Below the pieces are notes generated by a model. That model worked only from the letters and a program-made list of their open reading frames with translations. It was not told where the DNA came from and made no database searches. This document shows positions 1,986-59,311 of a DNA stretch of 64,000 bases, one piece after another (position 1 is the stretch's first letter; every line of letters begins with the position of its first letter). A program made the translations under genes and the position numbers. This DNA comes from Octopus vulgaris (Eukaryota): the NCBI GenBank assembly GCA_951406725.2, contig OX597819.1, forward strand, positions 131,440,001 through 131,504,000, given 5' to 3'.

Positions 1986-2186
1986 TCTTTTACTTGTTTC
2001 AGTCATTTGACTGTGGCCATGCTGGAGCACCGCCTTTAGTCGAGCAAATCGACCCCGGGACTAATTCTTTGTAAGCCCAGTACTTATTCTATTGGTCCCT
2101 TTTTGCCGAGCCGCTAAGTGACGGGGACATAAACACACCAGCATCGGTTGTCAAGCAATGCTAGGGGGACAAATACAGACACACAA

Positions 2187-2219
<33 letters not shown>

Positions 2220-2390
2220 CATATATACGACAGGCTTCTTTCAGTTTCCGTCTACCAAATCCACTCACAAGGCTTTGGTCAGCCCGAGGCTAAAGTAGAA
2301 GACACTTGCCCAAGGTGCCACGCAGTGGGACTGAACCCGGAACTATGTGGTTGGTAAACAAGCTACTTACCACACAGCCACTCCTGCGCC
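1986..2390 (-). mobile_element. tRNA-derived SINE family A, near full length
   Basis: Head GGCGCAGGAGTGGCTGTGTGG (A box) / GGTTCAGTCCC (B box), internal TA/CA microsatellite, tail ...ATGACTGAAACAAGTAAAAGAG. Confidence 0.9.
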
Positions 2391-2765
2391 TATGATAATG
2401 AATGAAATGTTATTTAATTTTATTGTTATTAATTTTTATTTCCAGTTTTTCATCTGCGATAAGATTTTTTGGTGACCGGTAATAAAGTAACAGACAAAGA
2501 AGTCACAATTAATTTGTGGTGACCAGTAATAAAGTTAGAGGGGAAAAAATGTCACGGTAATAAAGTTCACAATTTTGGCAAGGAAAAAAAATCAAGCGAA
2601 AAAAAAGTCACAATTAATTTATGGGATCCGGACAAAACACCCCTAGTACAAGCCCCCTCCCAGGACAAAACCCCTGTGACTTTTTTTTTTTACCTGTGTC
2701 TTTTTTTTTTTTTACCTGGATTCGATTTCTTCTTAGTGCAGGTTTGGCTGTGTGGTAAGAAGCTT

Positions 2766-3185
2766 GGATCTTTTCGGTTTGAACGGCAGGTTTTTCTAGC
2801 GGTGTCATTTGAAATTGTCACCCATAATTATGACCCTAGTATCGATCTATTGCATTTCAATCTGTTTTAGGGTTAGGGTTAGGGTTAGGGGTGGGGGGAA
2901 TGGTATCTTTTCTTCAGAAATGTAAATAAACCCAATCTGTTTCTTAAACGAGGGACATATTCATACAGCACAGAATGTTTTTTACCTCAAAGGACGTCAT
3001 TGATTGGCTGAAATTGCAGAAATTGAAGAAAAAAAAGAACAAATATCTTACAAACTATAGAATTTTCTCAATAAAGCCAAGAGAAAAAGATGTTTTATAA
3101 ACACATTCTACCAGTATACGAAGTTTAAAATTTTTTAGTTACCTAGAAATTATGTTAAAAACTGCCGTTCAAACCGAAAAGATCC
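2766..3185. mobile_element. MITE with 24-bp perfect TIRs and 8-bp TSD (Merlin- or hAT-like), nested in a SINE
   Basis: TIR ggatcttttcggtttgaacggcag (2766-2789 / 3162-3185); TSD agaagctt at 2758-2765 and 3186-3193. Confidence 0.88.
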
Positions 3186-3342
3186 AGAAGCTTGCTTCCC
3201 GACCATATTAGATCCGGGTTCAGTCCCATTGCGTGACACTTTGGGTAAGTGCCTTCCGCTATAGCCTCAGGCCGACCAAACCCTTGTCGATGGATTTGGT
3301 GAACGGAAACTGAAAGCCTGTCATATGTATATATACATATAT

Positions 3343-3401
<59 letters not shown>

Positions 3402-3417
3402 CATGTATGTATATATG

Positions 3418-3473
<56 letters not shown>

Positions 3474-3672
3474 CATATATACATACATGTATATATATAT
3501 ATGCACACACACACACACTACAAACAACACACACACTATGATGTTTTTTGACCTGGCTTTGACCTAGCTTGACACAAACAGCTAGCAGTCATCACCACAG
3601 CTGGCTTTGTCATTACCTTTATTCACCAAAAAATACACACACACACGCACGCACAAACACACTTGTCATCTT

Positions 3673-3706
<34 letters not shown>

Positions 3707-3856
3707 GCATTCCCTTTTTTTGGGAACTCTCTTGCATTATAAAACCATTTTTCAACTACCTTCAAATTCTGTTCTTTCAACATGTGATCCCTTAAGCACC
3801 ACCAGCTCAAATATTGTCTCCTCTGTCTTCCCTTCTTGGGATCTTTCCTTCTCCTT

Positions 3857-11370: not shown

Positions 11371-11453
<83 letters not shown>

Positions 11454-12989
11454 CGCAGGAGTGGCTGTGTGGTAAGTAGCTTGCTAACCAACCACATGGT
11501 TCCGGGTTCAGTCATGTGTATTGAGATTGCTCCGTTGACTCACGAAACAATCCCGAGCAGCTTTACATTCAATAGAAGAGGAATTTGCTGTCGCTCCTTA
11601 TATAACAGACGACGTTCAATGATGTCTAGTCCAGCCGATCTTTTCTCTTTTAAGTAACTGCATACGGGGGAGGGGTGGGCAGTATATTTAATCTATTACT
11701 TGTTTCAGTCATTTATGTATTTTAATACTTTTGTTACAACCGGTACTTAACACAACAAAGCTTATACAAAGCTTTACATTTTACTTTTGACAATCTTTTT
11801 CTAAAAAGTGAAACCGGTCAAGTGAATAAACCTCTTTAAAATTGTATTTTCAAACCTTCTTTCATATGTATATATATAGGCGCAGGAGTGGCTGTGTGGT
11901 AAGTGGCTTGCTTGCCAACCACATGGTTCCGGGTTCAGTCCCACTGCGTGGCACCTTGGGCAAGTGTCTTCTGCTATGGTCTCGGGCCGACCAATGCCTT
12001 GTGGGTGGATTTGGTAGAACAAATGGATACAAATATTTATTCTTCCAAGTCTTGTGTTTTTTTTTTTCTGTCGGCCTCTTTTCGTGAACTACTTAGTGGG
12101 ACATAAGCGAACGGACACCAGTTGTGAAACGGTGGCGGGGACAAACACACACACATGTACATAAATGTGTGTATGAGTGCGTGCGTTGTGTGTGTGTGTG
12201 TGTAGACGAGTTTTCAGTTTCCATCTGACAATTTCATTCACAAGGAGCTGAGCAGTGGAACTGAACCGGAAACTTCCTGGTTAGAAGCCACGCACCCTTT
12301 CCAGGGGCTCTATTTATTCATACTTTTCTACTCTAGGTACAAGGCCCGGAAATTTGGGGGAAGGTGCCAGTCGATTAGATCGACTCTAGTACACAACTGG
12401 TACTTTATCGACTCCGAAAGGATGAAAAGCAAAGTCGACCTCGGCGGAATTTGAACTCAGAACACAAAGACAGACGAGCTCTATTTATTAACCCAGCAAC
12501 AACAATATCTGTCTCATCTCTCTGCTACATTGAAGCGCTGAAAGTATTGGCAACATGCTACAGGTCGATATTACAAGCGGAATAAAAATGCCATAGCTTT
12601 GTTTTAAAAGATCAAAGGCAACATGTATACGTCATGAAAACATTTTGCCTTTTGAAGTCGAGGGACATTCATCCGTTTTTATACATTTTGAATGAAAGTT
12701 TCCACCTACCACTACGATACTCTCTTCTTCCTTACAAATAAGATACGGTGGCCTTTATTAAGAAAGAACAAACCGACAATACACAACGATAAACGACAAC
12801 GACAAAGATTGTAATTCGTCCCACGCAAAACACTTCATTGTCATACAGTTGCATAATTGCGCATATTTCTGGTTACTCGTGTATGTAGGACTATATTTAT
12901 AGATACACAGGCACACAGACACAGACACAGACACACATACACACACACACAAACACCTCCACCCCCACCCACACACGTGAGTGTATATC

Positions 12990-13405: not shown

Positions 13406-13860
13406 TTTTATTTTCTTTTTTGTTTGTTTCGGTCACTGCACTGCGGCCATGCTGGGGCACCCCCTTGAAGGGTTTAGATGAACAAATCGACTCCGGTACT
13501 TTTGAACCCTGGTACTTATTTCATTGGTCTCGTTTGCCGAACCTATAAGTTATGTGGCCGTAAACAACTGAACACCGGTTGTCAAACAGTGGTGGGAAAG
13601 AAAGACAAACAGACACACACAAATGTATGCGTATTTGTATATTATATGTGTATATATATATATATTAGAAAAAAACCCACCTTTTATCAATTCAATAATG
13701 AAAAATTAAATTATATCATTTAGAAAAATTACATATTATAAAAAGATTAAATATAAGATAAAACATATAACGATGCTAAAGTAATGTGCAAAATAATAAA
13801 TAAAATGTATATATTTGGTTATATTTGGTAATAATAATATGAGGGAATAATATTCCCTCA

Positions 13861-13906
<46 letters not shown>

Positions 13907-13908
13907 TA

Positions 13909-14312
13909 CTCTTACTCTTTTACTCTTTTAATTGTTTCAGTCATTTGACTGCGGCCATGCTGGAGCACCGCCTTTAGTCGAGCAACTCGACCCCGGGACC
14001 CACTCTTCTGTAAGCCCAGCACCTACTCCATCGGTCTCCCCTGCCGAACCGCCAAGTAACGGGGACACAAACACACCAGCATCGGCCGTCAAGCAACGCC
14101 AGGGGGACAAACACAGACACACAAACACATACACACACATACACATACACGATAGGCCTCCCTCAGCCTCCGTTCACCAAATCCACCCACAAGGCATTGG
14201 TCGGCCCGAGGCCATAGCAGAAGACACTTGATTAAGGTGCCACGCAGTGGGACTGAACCCGGAACCATGTGGTTGGCAAGCAAGCCACTTACCACACAGC
14301 CACTCCTGCGCC
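13909..14312 (-). mobile_element. SINE family A, A-to-G hypermutated copy
   Basis: Collinear with the 1986, 20210 and 53025 copies but with dense T>C changes on the + strand. Confidence 0.9.
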
Positions 14313-14522
14313 TATATATATATATATGAAAGAAGGTTTGAAAATGCTATTTTAAAGATGTTTATTCACTTGACCGATTTCACTTCTGTTAGAAAAAGAT
14401 TGTCAAAAGTAAAATGTAAAGCTTTGTAAAAGCTTTGTTGCGTTAAGTACAGGATGTAACAAAAGTATTAAAATACATAATATGGAGGTGGAGAGAGAGA
14501 GAGAGAGAGAGTGTGTGTGTGT

Positions 14523-20209: not shown

Positions 20210-20452
20210 ACTCTTTTACTCTTTTACTTGTTTCAGTCATTTGACTGCGGCCATGCTGGAGCACCGCCTTTAGTCGAGCAAATCAACCCCGGGACTTATT
20301 CTTTGTAAGCCCAGTACATATTCTATCGGTCTCTTTTGCTGAACCGCTAAGTGACGGGGACGTAAACACACCAGCATCGGTTGTCAAGCAATGCTAGGGG
20401 GACAAACACAGACACACAAACATATACACATACACATACATATATACACACA

Positions 20453-20495
<43 letters not shown>

Positions 20496-20657
20496 GACAG
20501 GCTTCTTTCAGTTTCCGTCAACCAAATCCACACACAAGGCATTGGTCGGCCCGGGGCTATAGCAGAAGACACTTGCCCAAGATGCCACGCAGTGGGACTG
20601 AACCCGGAACCATGTGGTTGGTTAGCAAGCTACTTACCACACAGCCACTCCTGCGCC
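20210..20657 (-). mobile_element. SINE family A, full length
   Basis: Same head, body and tail; further copies at about 15400-15770(-), 19330-19680(+), 23137-23541(-), 26231-26400(+), 40650-40850(-). Confidence 0.9.
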
Positions 20658-21362
20658 TATAATTTTAATTCATTAAAATTATTATTAGCACATTAAATTA
20701 GCCTCATTTTTGATATTTTCTGTGTCATTAATCATAATTATACATTTATTATAATTATGATAATACTTTTATGGTAACATTTTAATTTTTTTAATAAAAA
20801 TAAATGAGCATTGTACATGTTTTCTTCTTTTCGTAACTGTATACCTACTTTTGCACCAATCTGTATATTCTTCAATTTTTTTTCTTCCCTCATTAAAAAC
20901 AAACACATATTCATTTATTAAGCAAGTTTCAGTACCCAGGAGATGTCGAAATGGTGTTTTGAAGGGAACAATTTCATTTCTGCTCTTTCCCACTTGTCTG
21001 TATAAATTATGCTTTACAGCAGGGGCAGGGAAGCTTTTTAGTGTGTTGGGCAAAAATTTTCTAAGAAAAAGGTCCGCGGGCGGATCACAAGTTCTAACTC
21101 TTATATCTGTGTAAATCTTGTATATATCTTCTATGTATAGTTCGATATACATAAATAAAGATAAGTTTAACACATTAAATTAACGCCGCCACTGGTATGT
21201 AAAAACACCCATTACACTCTCAGAGTGGTTGGTGTTAGAAAGGGCCTCCAGCTGTAGAAAACCATGCCAAATCAAACTGGATCCTGGTGCAGCCTTCCAG
21301 CTTGCCAGCACTGGTCAAACTGTCCAACCCATGCGAGCATGGACAATGGATGCTAAATGATA

Positions 21363-22562: not shown

Positions 22563-23035
22563 GAGCTTCTAACACTGGAGATGTACTACAGTGTCAGCTC
22601 TTCACTACCAGTGAACTAAGGTAACACCTCTTATTTTTCGAGCACCATCTGGAGTATTCGAGCAGTTCCAAGCAGTGCTGTTTTCTGCAAGTGCTCCACC
22701 CTTATTGCAGCCCCTATTTGTTCCATGTACTTCCCAAAATTTTTACTCACTGTTCCCAGGGCTCCAACAATTATTGGTACTACTGCCACCTTTTTTCATC
22801 AACCACAACTGCTTAACCTCCCAAGCTAACCTGTCATATCTATCGACTTTTCTTTCTTCTTTATTGCATACCTCATTGTCAGCTGGGTATGCTAGATCTA
22901 TGATCCAGCATCGCTTGCTTTCTTTCTCAATTAAGACGATGTCTGGCTTCCTATTCTCTATCTTATTGTCGCACGGAATCATAAAATCCCACAGGATCTT
23001 TGCATTTTTATTTTCAATGATGCCTTCGGGGTTTG
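22563..23035 (-). mobile_element. R4/Dong-type LINE 3' fragment (restriction-like endonuclease) within (ATT)n
   Basis: KILWDFMIPCDNKIENRKPDIVLIEKESKRCWIIDLAYPAD...EERKVDRYDRLAWEVKQLW; (ATT)n on both sides. Confidence 0.85.
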
Positions 23036-23546
23036 TGGTCGTACCATTATTATTATTGTTGCTGTTGTTATTAAGGCAGTGGGCTGGCAGAATCGTTAGT
23101 GTGCTGTGCTTATAACAGAAAGGATTGTTATTATTACTCTTTTTACTCTTTAACTTGTTTCAGTCATTTGACTGCGGCCATGCTGGAGCACCACCTTTTA
23201 GTTGAGCAAATCGACCCCAGGACTTACTCTTATGTAAGCCCAGTACTTATTCTATCGGTCTTTTTTGCCGAACCGCTAAGTTACGGGGACGTAAACACAG
23301 CAGCATCGGTTGTCAAGTGATGTTGGGGGGACAAACACAGACACACAAACATATACACATACACATACATATATACATATATACGACGGGCTTCTTTCAG
23401 TTTCCATCTAACAAATCCACTCACAAGGCTTTGGTCAGCCCGAGGCTATAGTAGAAGACACTTGCCCAAGGTGCCACGCAGTGGGACTGAACCCGGAACC
23501 ATGTAATTCGTAAGCATGCTACTTACCACACAGCCACTCCTTAGCC

Positions 23547-23593
<47 letters not shown>

Positions 23594-53024: not shown

Positions 53025-53421
53025 GGCGCAGGAGTGGCTGTGTGGTAAGTAGCTTGCTAACCAACCACATGGTTCCGGGTTCAGTCCCACTGCGTGGCAC
53101 CTTGGGCAACTGTCTTCTGCTATAGCCCTGGGCCGACCAATGCCTTGTGAGTGGATTTGGTAGACGGAAACTGAAAGAAGCCTGTCGTATATATGTATAT
53201 ATATGTATGTGTGTGTGTTTGTGTGTCTGTGTTTGTCCCCCTAGCATTGCTTGACAACCGATGCTGGTGTGTTTACGTCGCCGTCTCTTAGCGGTTCAGC
53301 AAAAGAGACCGATAGAATAAGTACTGGGCTTACAAAGAATAAGTCCCGAGGTCGATTTGCTCGACTAAAGGCAGTGCTCCAGCATGGCCACAGTCAAATG
53401 ACTGAAACAAGTAAAAGAGAG
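53025..53421 (+). mobile_element. SINE family A, full length, in ALIX intron 6
   Basis: ggcgcaggagtggctgtgtgg...gactgaaacaagtaaaagagag; antisense copies in intron 3 (about 48860-49185) and intron 7 (about 54750-55120). Confidence 0.9.
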
Positions 53422-53998: not shown

Positions 53999-54590
53999 CA
54001 TCATTTAACATAGGTTTTCCATGCTGGCATGGGTTGGATGGTTTCACTGAAAACTGGTAAGCTGCCCATAGTTCCAATCCAATTTGGTAAGATTTCTGTG
54101 GTTGGATGCCCTTCCTGATGCCAACCACTCCAATAGTGTAGTGGGTGCTTCTTACATCCCACCAACATAAGTGCCAGTTACGTGACATCAGCATCGGCCA
54201 TAACTATAACTGCCTCTGAGGCCCAACGTTTGAAGGATGGTTTTTACATGCTACTGGTATGGGTGCCAGTAAAGTGACACTGGCATTGGCCACGGCTAAA
54301 ATTTCATTTGGCTTCACGGGTCTTCTCAAGCACAACATATTGCCAAAGGTCTCCAGTTACCTGTCATCACCTCTGTGAGGCCCAATGTTTAAAGATCCTG
54401 CTTCACTACCTCGTCCCATGTCTTCCTGGGCCTACGTCTTCCACAAGTTCCCTCAACCATTAGAGATTGGCACTCCTTCATGCAGTTGTCCTTGTCCATA
54501 TGCATCATATGACCATACCAGCGTAGTCGTCTCTCTTGCACACTACATCTGATGCTTCTTATGCCCAGCTTTTCTCTCAGGGCACATTTT
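53999..54590 (-). mobile_element. RTE-clade LINE 3' fragment in ALIX intron 7
   Basis: LREKLGIRSIRCSVQERRLRWYGHMMHM...GRRRPRKTWDEVVKQDL; same 3' UTR as the 26425 copy. Confidence 0.85.
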
Positions 54591-55429
54591 TGTGTGTCCG
54601 TCCAACCCATGCCAGCATGGAAAGCAGAAGCTAAATGATGAGGAAGGTTGGCAACAGGAAAGGCATCCAGTGGTAGAAAATCTGCATCAGGGAATTCCAT
54701 TTTACCCGTGCAAGCATGAAAAGGTGGACATAAAAATGATGATCTTTTATCTTTTACTCTTTTCAGTCATTAGACAGTGGCCATGCTGGGGCAGCACCTT
54801 GAAGAATTTTAGTTGAGAAAATCGACCCCAAAACCTTATTTTTGGTTTTTAAAGCTTGGTACTTATTCTGTTGGTTTCTTTTGCTGAACCACTAAGTTAC
54901 AGGGATGTAAACACATCACCTGTTGTCGAGTAGTAGTGGAGCACAGTGACATACTGAGAGAGGCTTCTTTCAGTTTCTACCTACCGAATCTACTCACAAG
55001 GCTTTGGTCTGTCTGAAGCTATAGTTGAATACACTTTCCCAAGGTCACACGCAGTGAGGTTGAACCCAGAACCATGTGGTTGAGAAGCAAACTTCTTACC
55101 ACACAGCCACACCTGCACCTATCATGACAACATATTCTTCTACGATCCTTGTTCCTCCTGTCTCAGATGAGTTCTTGTCTTTCCTCTGGTTGCCAACAAT
55201 CAACAGATTTCCCAGAGCTCAACTCCATTCCTCTGTGCAGCATTCCTTGCATAGTTCTCCTCGGAACCAGTTCCCATGGCTTTTAACCCATCAGCATACA
55301 GATTTACTTTGTCAAAATGTTGTGCATATTTATTCACCTCCGTGTATTCAGATGGTTTGTCTTGCTTTGATCTCTGTGGAAGTGTGTGAAATATTGAACT
55401 GGTCCCACTTTTCTTTTCTTTTTTCCTAG

Positions 55430-59133: not shown

Positions 59134-59311
59134 TGTGCTTGCTTCTCTGAATCTTCCTGCTGCCATTGAAGATCTCTCTGGTGACAGTATCCCGACTTCT
59201 TTACTGGAAAAGGCTCAGCAATTGAAAAGGGATGGTGGAGTAGAAAGCCTCAATAAAATGATGCAAGACTTGCCAGAGTTATTGGGACGGAACCGAGAAA
59301 TTCTAAATGAG
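59134..59311 (+). CDS. PDCD6IP: ALIX exon 10 (V domain)
   Basis: VLASLNLPAAIEDLSGDSIPTSLLEKA...RNREILNE; ttcag / gtgagt; 178 nt. Confidence 0.96.

What the first reader, a model, noticed from the sequence alone, without database searches (positions are those of the whole stretch)
13909..14312. SINE copy that looks like a retrotransposed ADAR-hyper-edited RNA
Seen: aligned by eye to sibling copies in this window (1986, 20210, 23137, 53025), this copy has about 27 T>C changes on the + strand between 14000 and 14286, versus roughly 6-7 other changes. These are A>G changes on the SINE sense strand. Examples: gggacttattc > gggacccactc; tacttattcta > cacctactcca; tctcttttg > tctcccctg; aggcttctttcagtttccg > aggcctccctcagcctccg. 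In these T runs the T directly before a C is spared (one exception, ccactcac > ccacccac), meaning sense-strand A with a 5' G is almost never changed. Established: clustered A>G with depletion of 5'-G is the ADAR signature; inosine is read as G by reverse transcriptase; coleoid cephalopods have very extensive A-to-I editing; CpG decay and APOBEC give C>T/G>A instead. Inference: the SINE RNA was hyper-edited, then reverse-transcribed and fixed in the germline, so RNA editing was written back into DNA. This would be a possible editing-based transposon defence or diversification route.
Basis: partly seen in the sequence, partly recalled or inferred. Interest (0 to 1): 0.88.

Follow-up and report, generated by a model that had tools for sequence, protein, structure and literature searches.

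The report
RNA-edited SINE copies fixed in DNA
One copy of a short jumping repeat has about a third of its A letters turned to G on one strand only, in the pattern of the RNA-editing enzyme ADAR, most likely because an edited RNA was copied back into inherited DNA; other copies of the repeat carry the same marks, and one lightly marked copy appears to have founded its own small family.

Summary
Confirmed. The copy at 13909-14312 has 26 of 81 sense-strand A changed to G, 0 of 82 on the other strand and 4 other changes. Changed A's follow U or A (23/45), rarely C or G (3/35), as ADAR does. The G's are real DNA: contigs of four public runs from four studies carry them, and an old inverted duplicate 2 kb away shares four of them. 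Genome-wide, clustered-change motifs hit 67 times on the sense strand and 3 on the antisense strand; 17 copies with 10 or more changes were found, mostly with different site sets; 0 of 111 unselected young copies had 5 or more. Fourteen dispersed copies share five such changes, so a probably edited copy became a source element. One full-length copy is changed on the antisense strand, which the simple model does not explain. Best reading: ADAR-edited SINE RNA was retrotransposed in the germ line (0.82). It is too rare to be a defence. RNA editing itself and the duplex partner were not observed. The scan noted the same phenomenon in other repeats of this genome and in another genome.

The parts
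13909..14312 (-). Full-length SINE copy, about 400 nt, sense on the minus strand; the most heavily changed of 17 such copies found
14000..14286 (-). Tract of A>G changes (T>C on +): 26 of 60 scored sites; 23 of 33 in 5' U/A context
13925..13999 (-). 3'-terminal part of the SINE without any A>G change (0 of 21 sites, 0 of 12 in favoured context)
14249..14302 (-). tRNA-like head: A-box-like (14292-14302) and B-box-like (14249-14259) motifs, both unchanged; motif identity is recalled, ARAGORN and Rfam called no tRNA
   Evidence: sequence
13908..13927 (-). Short tandem 3' tail of the SINE
14112..14150 (.). Central (CA)/(TA) microsatellite, left out of the counts
13897..13907 (.). (TA)n run on the tail side; matches 11 nt on the head side; possible target-site duplication, but too simple to prove it
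14313..14327 (.). (TA)n run on the head side
14327..14480 (.). Unrelated dispersed repeat next to the SINE head; no T>C excess (2 of about 7 differences private to this copy)
11713..12020 (+). Inverted duplicate of 14172-14480 (94.5%), with the SINE head and the flank; shares the C at 14187, 14213, 14277, 14286 and keeps the ancestral letters at 14231-14233
1987..2392 (-). Sibling copy, unmarked (0 T>C, 1 A>G)
20221..20659 (-). Sibling copy, unmarked (0, 0)
23148..23547 (-). Sibling copy, unmarked (1, 0)
53025..53417 (+). Sibling copy in the other orientation, unmarked (0, 0)

Best explanation
This is a germ-line SINE insertion carrying 26 one-stranded A>G changes in ADAR's sequence context, most likely because its RNA template was A-to-I hyper-edited while paired with a complementary RNA and was then reverse-transcribed into the chromosome by a LINE enzyme. 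Shown: the changes, their strand and context, their presence in DNA of several runs, their stop at the element's edge, their age (older than a local duplication), a rare sense-biased class of similar copies, and a 14-copy lineage sharing five changes. Inferred: that the changes arose in RNA; that the partner strand came from outside the SINE (an inverted copy at the source locus or antisense transcripts), since the SINE RNA folds no better than shuffles; that reverse transcriptase read inosine as G (established knowledge); that the 14 copies descend from one edited source. It is a rare leak of editing into the genome, not a defence.
For: Spectrum 26/81 vs 0/82 with 4 other changes. Context 5' U, A >> C, G in this copy and in 14 other motif-picked copies scored outside the motif (U 58/215, A 61/338, C 6/219, G 9/216; 3' G 51/290 vs 83/698, P 0.019), flat in 85 random copies; it matches the metazoan motif (PMC9989829, passages). 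Contigs with 0-2 differences over marked stretches in 4 of 4 runs laid. Duplicate shares the C letters while the two flanks have drifted apart by 12 differences in about 165 nt, so the changes date from near the insertion. Sense bias: 10, 27, 30 hits for three sense motifs vs 2, 0, 1 for three antisense motifs with about 205,000 vs 248,000 unchanged sites by scaling a 600-kb sample (20, 24, 51; 23, 56); reciprocal similarity searches gave 8 of 29 loci with 6 or more sense changes vs 0 of 29 with 4 or more antisense changes. The 17 heavy copies sit on several subfamily backgrounds, median overlap of changed sites 0.23. L098 has an inverted neighbour about 160 nt away that is unmarked. At least four A_deamin loci exist in the genome. 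Octopus CNS RNA is strongly hyper-edited (PMC5625713, passages). Human L1 copied ADAR-marked mRNAs into DNA in 3 of 235 pseudogene insertions (PMC11702581, passage).
Against: No RNA editing of this SINE was observed; no source locus or duplex partner was found. L102 is a full-length copy with 15/80 A>G on the antisense strand and 0/81 on the sense strand, which copying of an edited sense RNA cannot give. The 3' G preference is weak (P 0.07 in this copy), and PMC5625713 reports A rather than G downstream for the invertebrate group. 5' U/A preference is also the polymerase eta WA motif (recalled). Many motif hits have few changes outside the motif (only 4 of the 26 scored loci and 4 of 30 have 6 or more), and some hits are daughters of one source, so 67 overstates independent events. 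One heavy copy's site set (L097) is nested in this copy's.
Confidence: 0.82

Rival explanations
1. ADAR or a related deaminase acted on DNA: on a DNA strand of the RNA:DNA hybrid or of the new insertion during reverse transcription, or the resident copy was overwritten in place by cDNA of an edited host transcript.
For: ADARs deaminate dA in DNA/RNA hybrids with the same context preference (PMC5389660, abstract). It would explain the antisense copy L102 (5' A 11/20, C 2/27, G 1/15, U 1/15): the first cDNA strand is antisense.
Against: Deamination of first-strand cDNA predicts antisense marks, but sense marks dominate 67 to 3. In-place overwriting predicts both orientations equally and marked inverted neighbours; L098's neighbour is unmarked and the opposite-strand fragment at 11450-11513 has none. 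No exon with a convincing Pfam match lies in 1-31 kb (77 of 78 ORFs without a hit over the cut-off), so no host transcript is known over this copy.
Confidence: 0.08
2. An error-prone polymerase (eta- or iota-like during second-strand synthesis, or the reverse transcriptase under a skewed nucleotide pool) put G opposite T in one pass.
For: Polymerase eta favours A>G at WA sites (recalled), which fits U, A >> C, G. A one-pass event also gives one-stranded clusters limited to the element.
Against: 32% of A changed with no A>T or A>C in this copy; eta's error rate is a few percent per T and includes transversions and indels (recalled). Mild 3' G excess is not expected.
Confidence: 0.06
3. The copy belongs to a diverged subfamily, or was converted by another copy, and ordinary mutation made the differences.
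For: Subfamilies with shared T>C variants exist in this family (14 copies); some of this copy's changes recur in others.
Against: No other locus scored above 92% to the 181-nt core among the 40 best of 2942 candidates; ordinary divergence here is symmetric and led by C>T and G>A; this copy has only 4 other changes. Conversion from a marked donor only moves the question.
Confidence: 0.03
4. Assembly or polishing artefact, for instance RNA reads used in polishing.
For: The signature is that of edited RNA reads; raw reads were not examined.
Against: Contigs of four runs, four studies, three organism labels carry the letters (three are marked 'DNA?', one '?', each of 2,200-3,800 million letters; one may be the assembly's source); a 94.5%-identical duplicate shares four of them.
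Confidence: 0.01

Closest known systems
ADAR-marked processed pseudogene insertions made by human L1 in cultured cells (PMC11702581, bioRxiv 2024; one passage read; Fig. S8 not seen)
   Same: Clustered T>C/A>G in a new non-LTR insertion, attributed to editing of the RNA before target-primed reverse transcription.
   Different: Somatic, induced, in cell culture, within inverted Alu pairs of mRNAs (3 of 235). Here: germ line, old, shared by several samples, in a single SINE without its partner arm, and inherited by daughter copies.
APOBEC 'DNA editing' of LTR retrotransposons in vertebrate genomes (PMC4866542 and PMC2873906; passages read)
   Same: Hypermutated retroelement copies fixed in the genome, one-directional and strand-biased, seen against a family consensus.
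   Different: G>A from C-to-U on cDNA, LTR elements, vertebrates; the word ADAR does not occur in the main text of PMC4866542.
A-to-G hypermutation of avian retroviruses (recalled, and named in the scan's earlier notes; not read)
   Same: ADAR-type changes in an RNA genome preserved by reverse transcription.
   Different: Exogenous viruses in somatic cells, not a germ-line SINE.
Hyper-editing of repeat RNA in Octopus and other animals (PMC5625713, PMC9989829; passages read)
   Same: Clusters of A>G in young repeats, 5' G depleted, 5' U and A favoured.
   Different: Seen in RNA against unedited DNA; here the marks are in DNA.
Octopus tRNA-derived SINEs of Ohshima and Okada 1994, e.g. OR1 (seen only as a mention in PMC4824008)
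   Same: About 400-nt repeat with a tRNA-like head and short tandem tail in an octopus-like genome.
   Different: No sequence comparison was possible; the family name is not assigned.

Membership tests
ADAR hyper-editing signature | Dense, one-stranded A>G with few other changes | tested here: met
   26/81 vs 0/82, 4 others
ADAR hyper-editing signature | 5' G depleted, 5' U and A favoured | tested here: met
   background flat
ADAR hyper-editing signature | 3' neighbour preference (G in most species; weaker or A in invertebrates by one study) | tested here: inconclusive
   3' G 11/23 vs 15/57 here (P 0.07), P 0.019 in 14 others; papers differ
ADAR hyper-editing signature | Long double-stranded substrate | tested here: inconclusive
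   An unmarked sibling folds no better than shuffles, z -0.54; no partner found; about 1e5 copies in both orientations could supply one
ADAR hyper-editing signature | Enzyme encoded in the genome | tested here: met
   A_deamin (PF02137) at four loci; the family also holds ADAT1 and ADAD, not told apart
ADAR hyper-editing signature | Inosine in the RNA, dependent on ADAR | not testable with these tools
   No stranded raw RNA reads were offered
Retrotransposed SINE insertion | High copy number, defined 5' end, 3' tandem tail | tested here: met
   45 near-full copies in 600 kb
Retrotransposed SINE insertion | tRNA-derived head with A and B boxes | tested here: inconclusive
   Box-like motifs by eye (recalled consensus); ARAGORN 0 genes, Rfam no tRNA hit on a sibling
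Retrotransposed SINE insertion | Target-site duplication | tested here: inconclusive
   11-nt (TA)n on both sides, low complexity; no empty site seen
Germ-line fixed variant | Letters present in independent DNA data | tested here: met
   4 of 4 runs laid, as contigs; local duplicate
APOBEC-edited retroelement | Sense-strand G>A clusters | tested here: not met
   Sense G>A (C>T on +) 3/90, two of them in one 3-nt block that postdates the duplicate
Editing-based transposon defence | A large share of copies marked and disabled | tested here: not met
   0 of 111 unselected young copies; a marked lineage spread to 14 loci

The most novel reading that the evidence does not exclude
In this octopus-like lineage ADAR is a recurring germ-line mutagen of SINEs: edited SINE RNAs are retrotransposed again and again, edited copies can become source genes that found subfamilies, so RNA editing writes diagnostic subfamily changes; and the rare antisense-marked copies record ADAR acting on the cDNA strand of the reverse-transcription hybrid, that is, natural DNA editing by ADAR.
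Probability: 0.45. Interest if true: 0.85.

Novelty: new variant of a known kind. Interest (0 to 1): 0.7.

Why it matters
RNA editing is thought to leave the genome untouched. These copies would be fossils of single edited RNA molecules from germ cells: they show ADAR acting there, allow its sequence preference to be read from DNA of the past, and give a countable rate at which editing becomes heritable. The 14-copy lineage suggests that editing can create repeat subfamilies. The strand of the marks offers a test of whether ADAR ever edits DNA in vivo. A practical point: such copies can pose as edited reads, or as their source, in hyper-editing pipelines. Limits: the class is rare, no effect on a gene is shown, each step has a precedent, and the scan has noted the phenomenon in other repeats of this genome.

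Tried and rejected
One search failed on BLAST settings and was rerun. The motif was mis-specified (its unchanged form has 0 matches in the 600-kb sample); its 0 hits are dropped from all counts. Family-wide strand excess: none; T>C and A>G are alike in 115 random copies and in 58 young bystander copies (46/3718 vs 45/3637). Self-folding of the SINE RNA as the substrate: rejected. Spread of the changes into the flank: not seen. The inverted duplicate as the pairing partner: rejected, since it carries the same changes in the same SINE orientation and so is a later copy. A host gene over the copy: none found; the ALIX-like gene starts at about 31217. Positional bias of changes toward the SINE's 3' half in other copies is confounded by where my motifs lay and is not used. 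Raw-read confirmation and RNA contigs at the locus remain unexamined. Literature searches for a genome-fixed ADAR-edited SINE class listed none by title or start of abstract; passages of PMC9599045 and PMC11760393 were irrelevant; the library lacks most subscription papers, and no supplements were read. Sequence look-up in the scan's notes gave nothing.

Full report
Setting. The window is G000:C6:131440001-131504000 of a 2.8-Gb animal assembly. The feature is one copy of a roughly 400-nt repeat with 45 near-full copies in a 600-kb random sample. Its sense strand is the minus strand: A- and B-box-like motifs (recalled consensus) lie at 14292-14302 and 14249-14259, a short tandem tail at 13908-13927. 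ARAGORN and Rfam called no tRNA, which is usual for decayed SINE heads (own knowledge) but leaves that point unproven.

Against the majority of 46 other copies there are 30 T>C between 14000 and 14286, no A>G and 10 other substitutions. After masking 35 family-polymorphic columns, gap edges and the microsatellite: 26/81 T>C, 0/82 A>G, 3 C>T, 1 C>A. Random young copies change 1.35% of T, at most 4 in any of 53; P is 1e-28. Site 14175 may be an indel. On the sense strand the changed A follows U 10/17, A 13/28, C 2/17, G 1/18 (P 0.0045), and precedes G 11/23 vs 15/57 (P 0.07); 85 random copies show no such pattern. The last 75 nt of the SINE are unchanged, 0/21 sites against 26/60.

The letters are in DNA. 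Contigs of 4 of 4 runs laid (four studies, three organism labels) cover marked stretches: X1 13973-14060 with 0 differences, X2 13973-14037 and 14008-14083 with 0, X5 13964-14071 with 2, X7 14008-14071 with 1. These are contigs, their DNA status is a guess of the index, one may be the assembly's source, and they cover only the 3' half of the tract; raw reads were not examined. For the 5' half there is an internal witness: 11713-12020 is an inverted duplicate of 14172-14480, SINE head plus flank, 94.5% identical. It shares the C at 14187, 14213, 14277 and 14286 and keeps the ancestral letters at 14231-14233. The flank parts differ at 12 positions in about 165 nt, more than the SINE's own non-A>G divergence from the family, so the marks date from about the time of insertion (inference). 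The flank is another repeat and shows no T>C excess, 2 of about 7 private differences.

It is one of a rare class. Exact genome-wide counts for clustered-change motifs: sense 10, 27 and 30 against about 61,000, 107,000 and 37,000 unchanged sites; antisense 2, 0 and 1 against about 117,000, 75,000 and 56,000 (scaled from 8-25 matches each in 600 kb; rough). A seventh motif was mis-specified and is dropped. Many hits have little beyond the motif, and some are related, so the number of independent events is lower. Among 90 selected loci, 17 copies have 10 or more T>C, selected sites included, and at most 2 A>G; this copy has the most. Fourteen motif-picked copies with 6 or more changes outside the motif repeat the context: U 58/215, A 61/338, C 6/219, G 9/216; 3' G P 0.019. 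The 17 lie on several subfamily backgrounds and share few sites (median Jaccard 0.23, maximum 0.50; one set nested in this copy's). Unselected young copies: 0 of 53 random and 0 of 58 bystanders have 5 or more, so the class is under about 3% and probably far rarer.

An edited copy seems to have bred. Eleven hits share T>C at five sites, three of which were not demanded by the motif, and no other non-polymorphic variant is common to all (one G>A is in 7 of 11). Their flanks are unrelated (1 weak 47-nt match among 22 flanks). A similarity search added three more with 5/5 and found copies with the same variant tail and 0/5. All five sites have 5' U or A and four recur in the independent heavy copies. 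The simplest reading is one lightly edited RNA that inserted and then served as a source gene (inference).

One copy goes the other way. L102 has 15/80 A>G on the antisense strand and 0/81 on the sense strand, with G and C again avoided at the 5' side. A search with it found no second such copy among 29 loci, whereas the search with the focal copy gave 8 of 29 with 6 or more sense changes. L102 needs editing of the cDNA strand, which ADARs can do in hybrids (PMC5389660, abstract), or copying of an edited antisense transcript.

Mechanism. Most likely (0.82) a germ-line SINE transcript paired with complementary RNA, ADAR deaminated about a third of its A, and a LINE reverse transcriptase copied inosine as G during insertion. 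The SINE RNA does not fold on itself more than shuffles (z -0.54), so the partner must come from outside; with about 1e5 copies in both orientations that is easy, and both inverted repeats and sense-antisense pairs are described substrates (PMC5625713, PMC9989829; passages). The genome has four A_deamin loci. In-place rewriting from a host transcript is disfavoured by the strand bias, by L098's unmarked inverted neighbour and by the lack of a known gene over this copy. An error-prone polymerase is disfavoured by the density and purity of A>G (polymerase figures recalled). Defence is not supported: the class is rare, the copies are full length with unchanged promoter-like boxes, one lineage spread, and ADAR restriction of human L1 is reported as largely independent of editing (PMC8677026, passages).

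What is known. Capture of ADAR-marked RNA by L1 has been seen in cultured human cells (PMC11702581, passage; the lead came from scan note e1-8669948). APOBEC-marked LTR elements are common in vertebrate genomes (PMC4866542, PMC2873906; passages). A-to-G hypermutated avian retroviruses are recalled, not read. Seven searches listed no paper on germ-line-fixed ADAR-marked SINEs; the library is incomplete and supplements were not read. The scan's own notes report the same phenomenon in Penelope, LINE, hairpin and short repeats of this genome and in one other genome; they are unchecked and not independent evidence.

Verdict. Real feature, new variant of a known kind, interest 0.70. What this copy adds is a strand-controlled class, an apparently edited founder of a subfamily, and an antisense exception that makes DNA-level editing testable.

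Noticed in passing
L102:1383-1778 (G000:C13, near 81.17 Mb): Full-length copy with 15/80 A>G on the antisense strand and 0/81 on the sense strand, in (TA)n flanks; shares a rare tail-proximal variant with the focal copy. Mechanism open.
   Followed up: partly
L160, L161, L166-L168, L170, L172, L174, L177, L181, L186, L197, L202, L215: Fourteen dispersed copies share five sense A>G changes; flanks of the first 11 are unrelated; copies with the same variant tail but none of the five exist (L198, L207, L209, L211).
   Followed up: yes
L104, L106, L111: Three copies with different flanks share a triple T>C near the tail and a deletion of about 40 nt: a second small lineage.
   Followed up: partly
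window 31217-59389 (+): ALIX/PDCD6IP-like gene: BRO1 exons at about 31217, 49780, 51875, 53750, 55475 and an ALIX V-domain exon near 59180.
   Followed up: partly
window 11697-12280: The inverted duplicate sits inside an old, decayed copy of the same SINE, replacing part of it; looks like a templated insertion from 2 kb away.
   Followed up: partly
L091:1360-1870: A marked SINE copy flanked by a 38-nt perfect inverted repeat instead of a direct repeat.
   Followed up: no
L101: SINE pieces in opposite orientation joined across a (TA)n run, as in a 5' inversion.
   Followed up: no
L124: A different repeat that shares this SINE's last 30 or so bases and has six T>C there; a possible sister SINE or partner LINE tail.
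   Followed up: no
window 13830-13871: Small near-perfect inverted repeat just beyond the SINE tail.
   Followed up: no
window 22743-23159 (-) and 54389-54766 (-): Open frames that look like LINE fragments by recalled motifs; Pfam gave no convincing hit.
   Followed up: partly
G000:C6:132220394-132222819: The strongest A_deamin match of the genome lies about 0.72 Mb beyond the window's end; probably coincidence.
   Followed up: no
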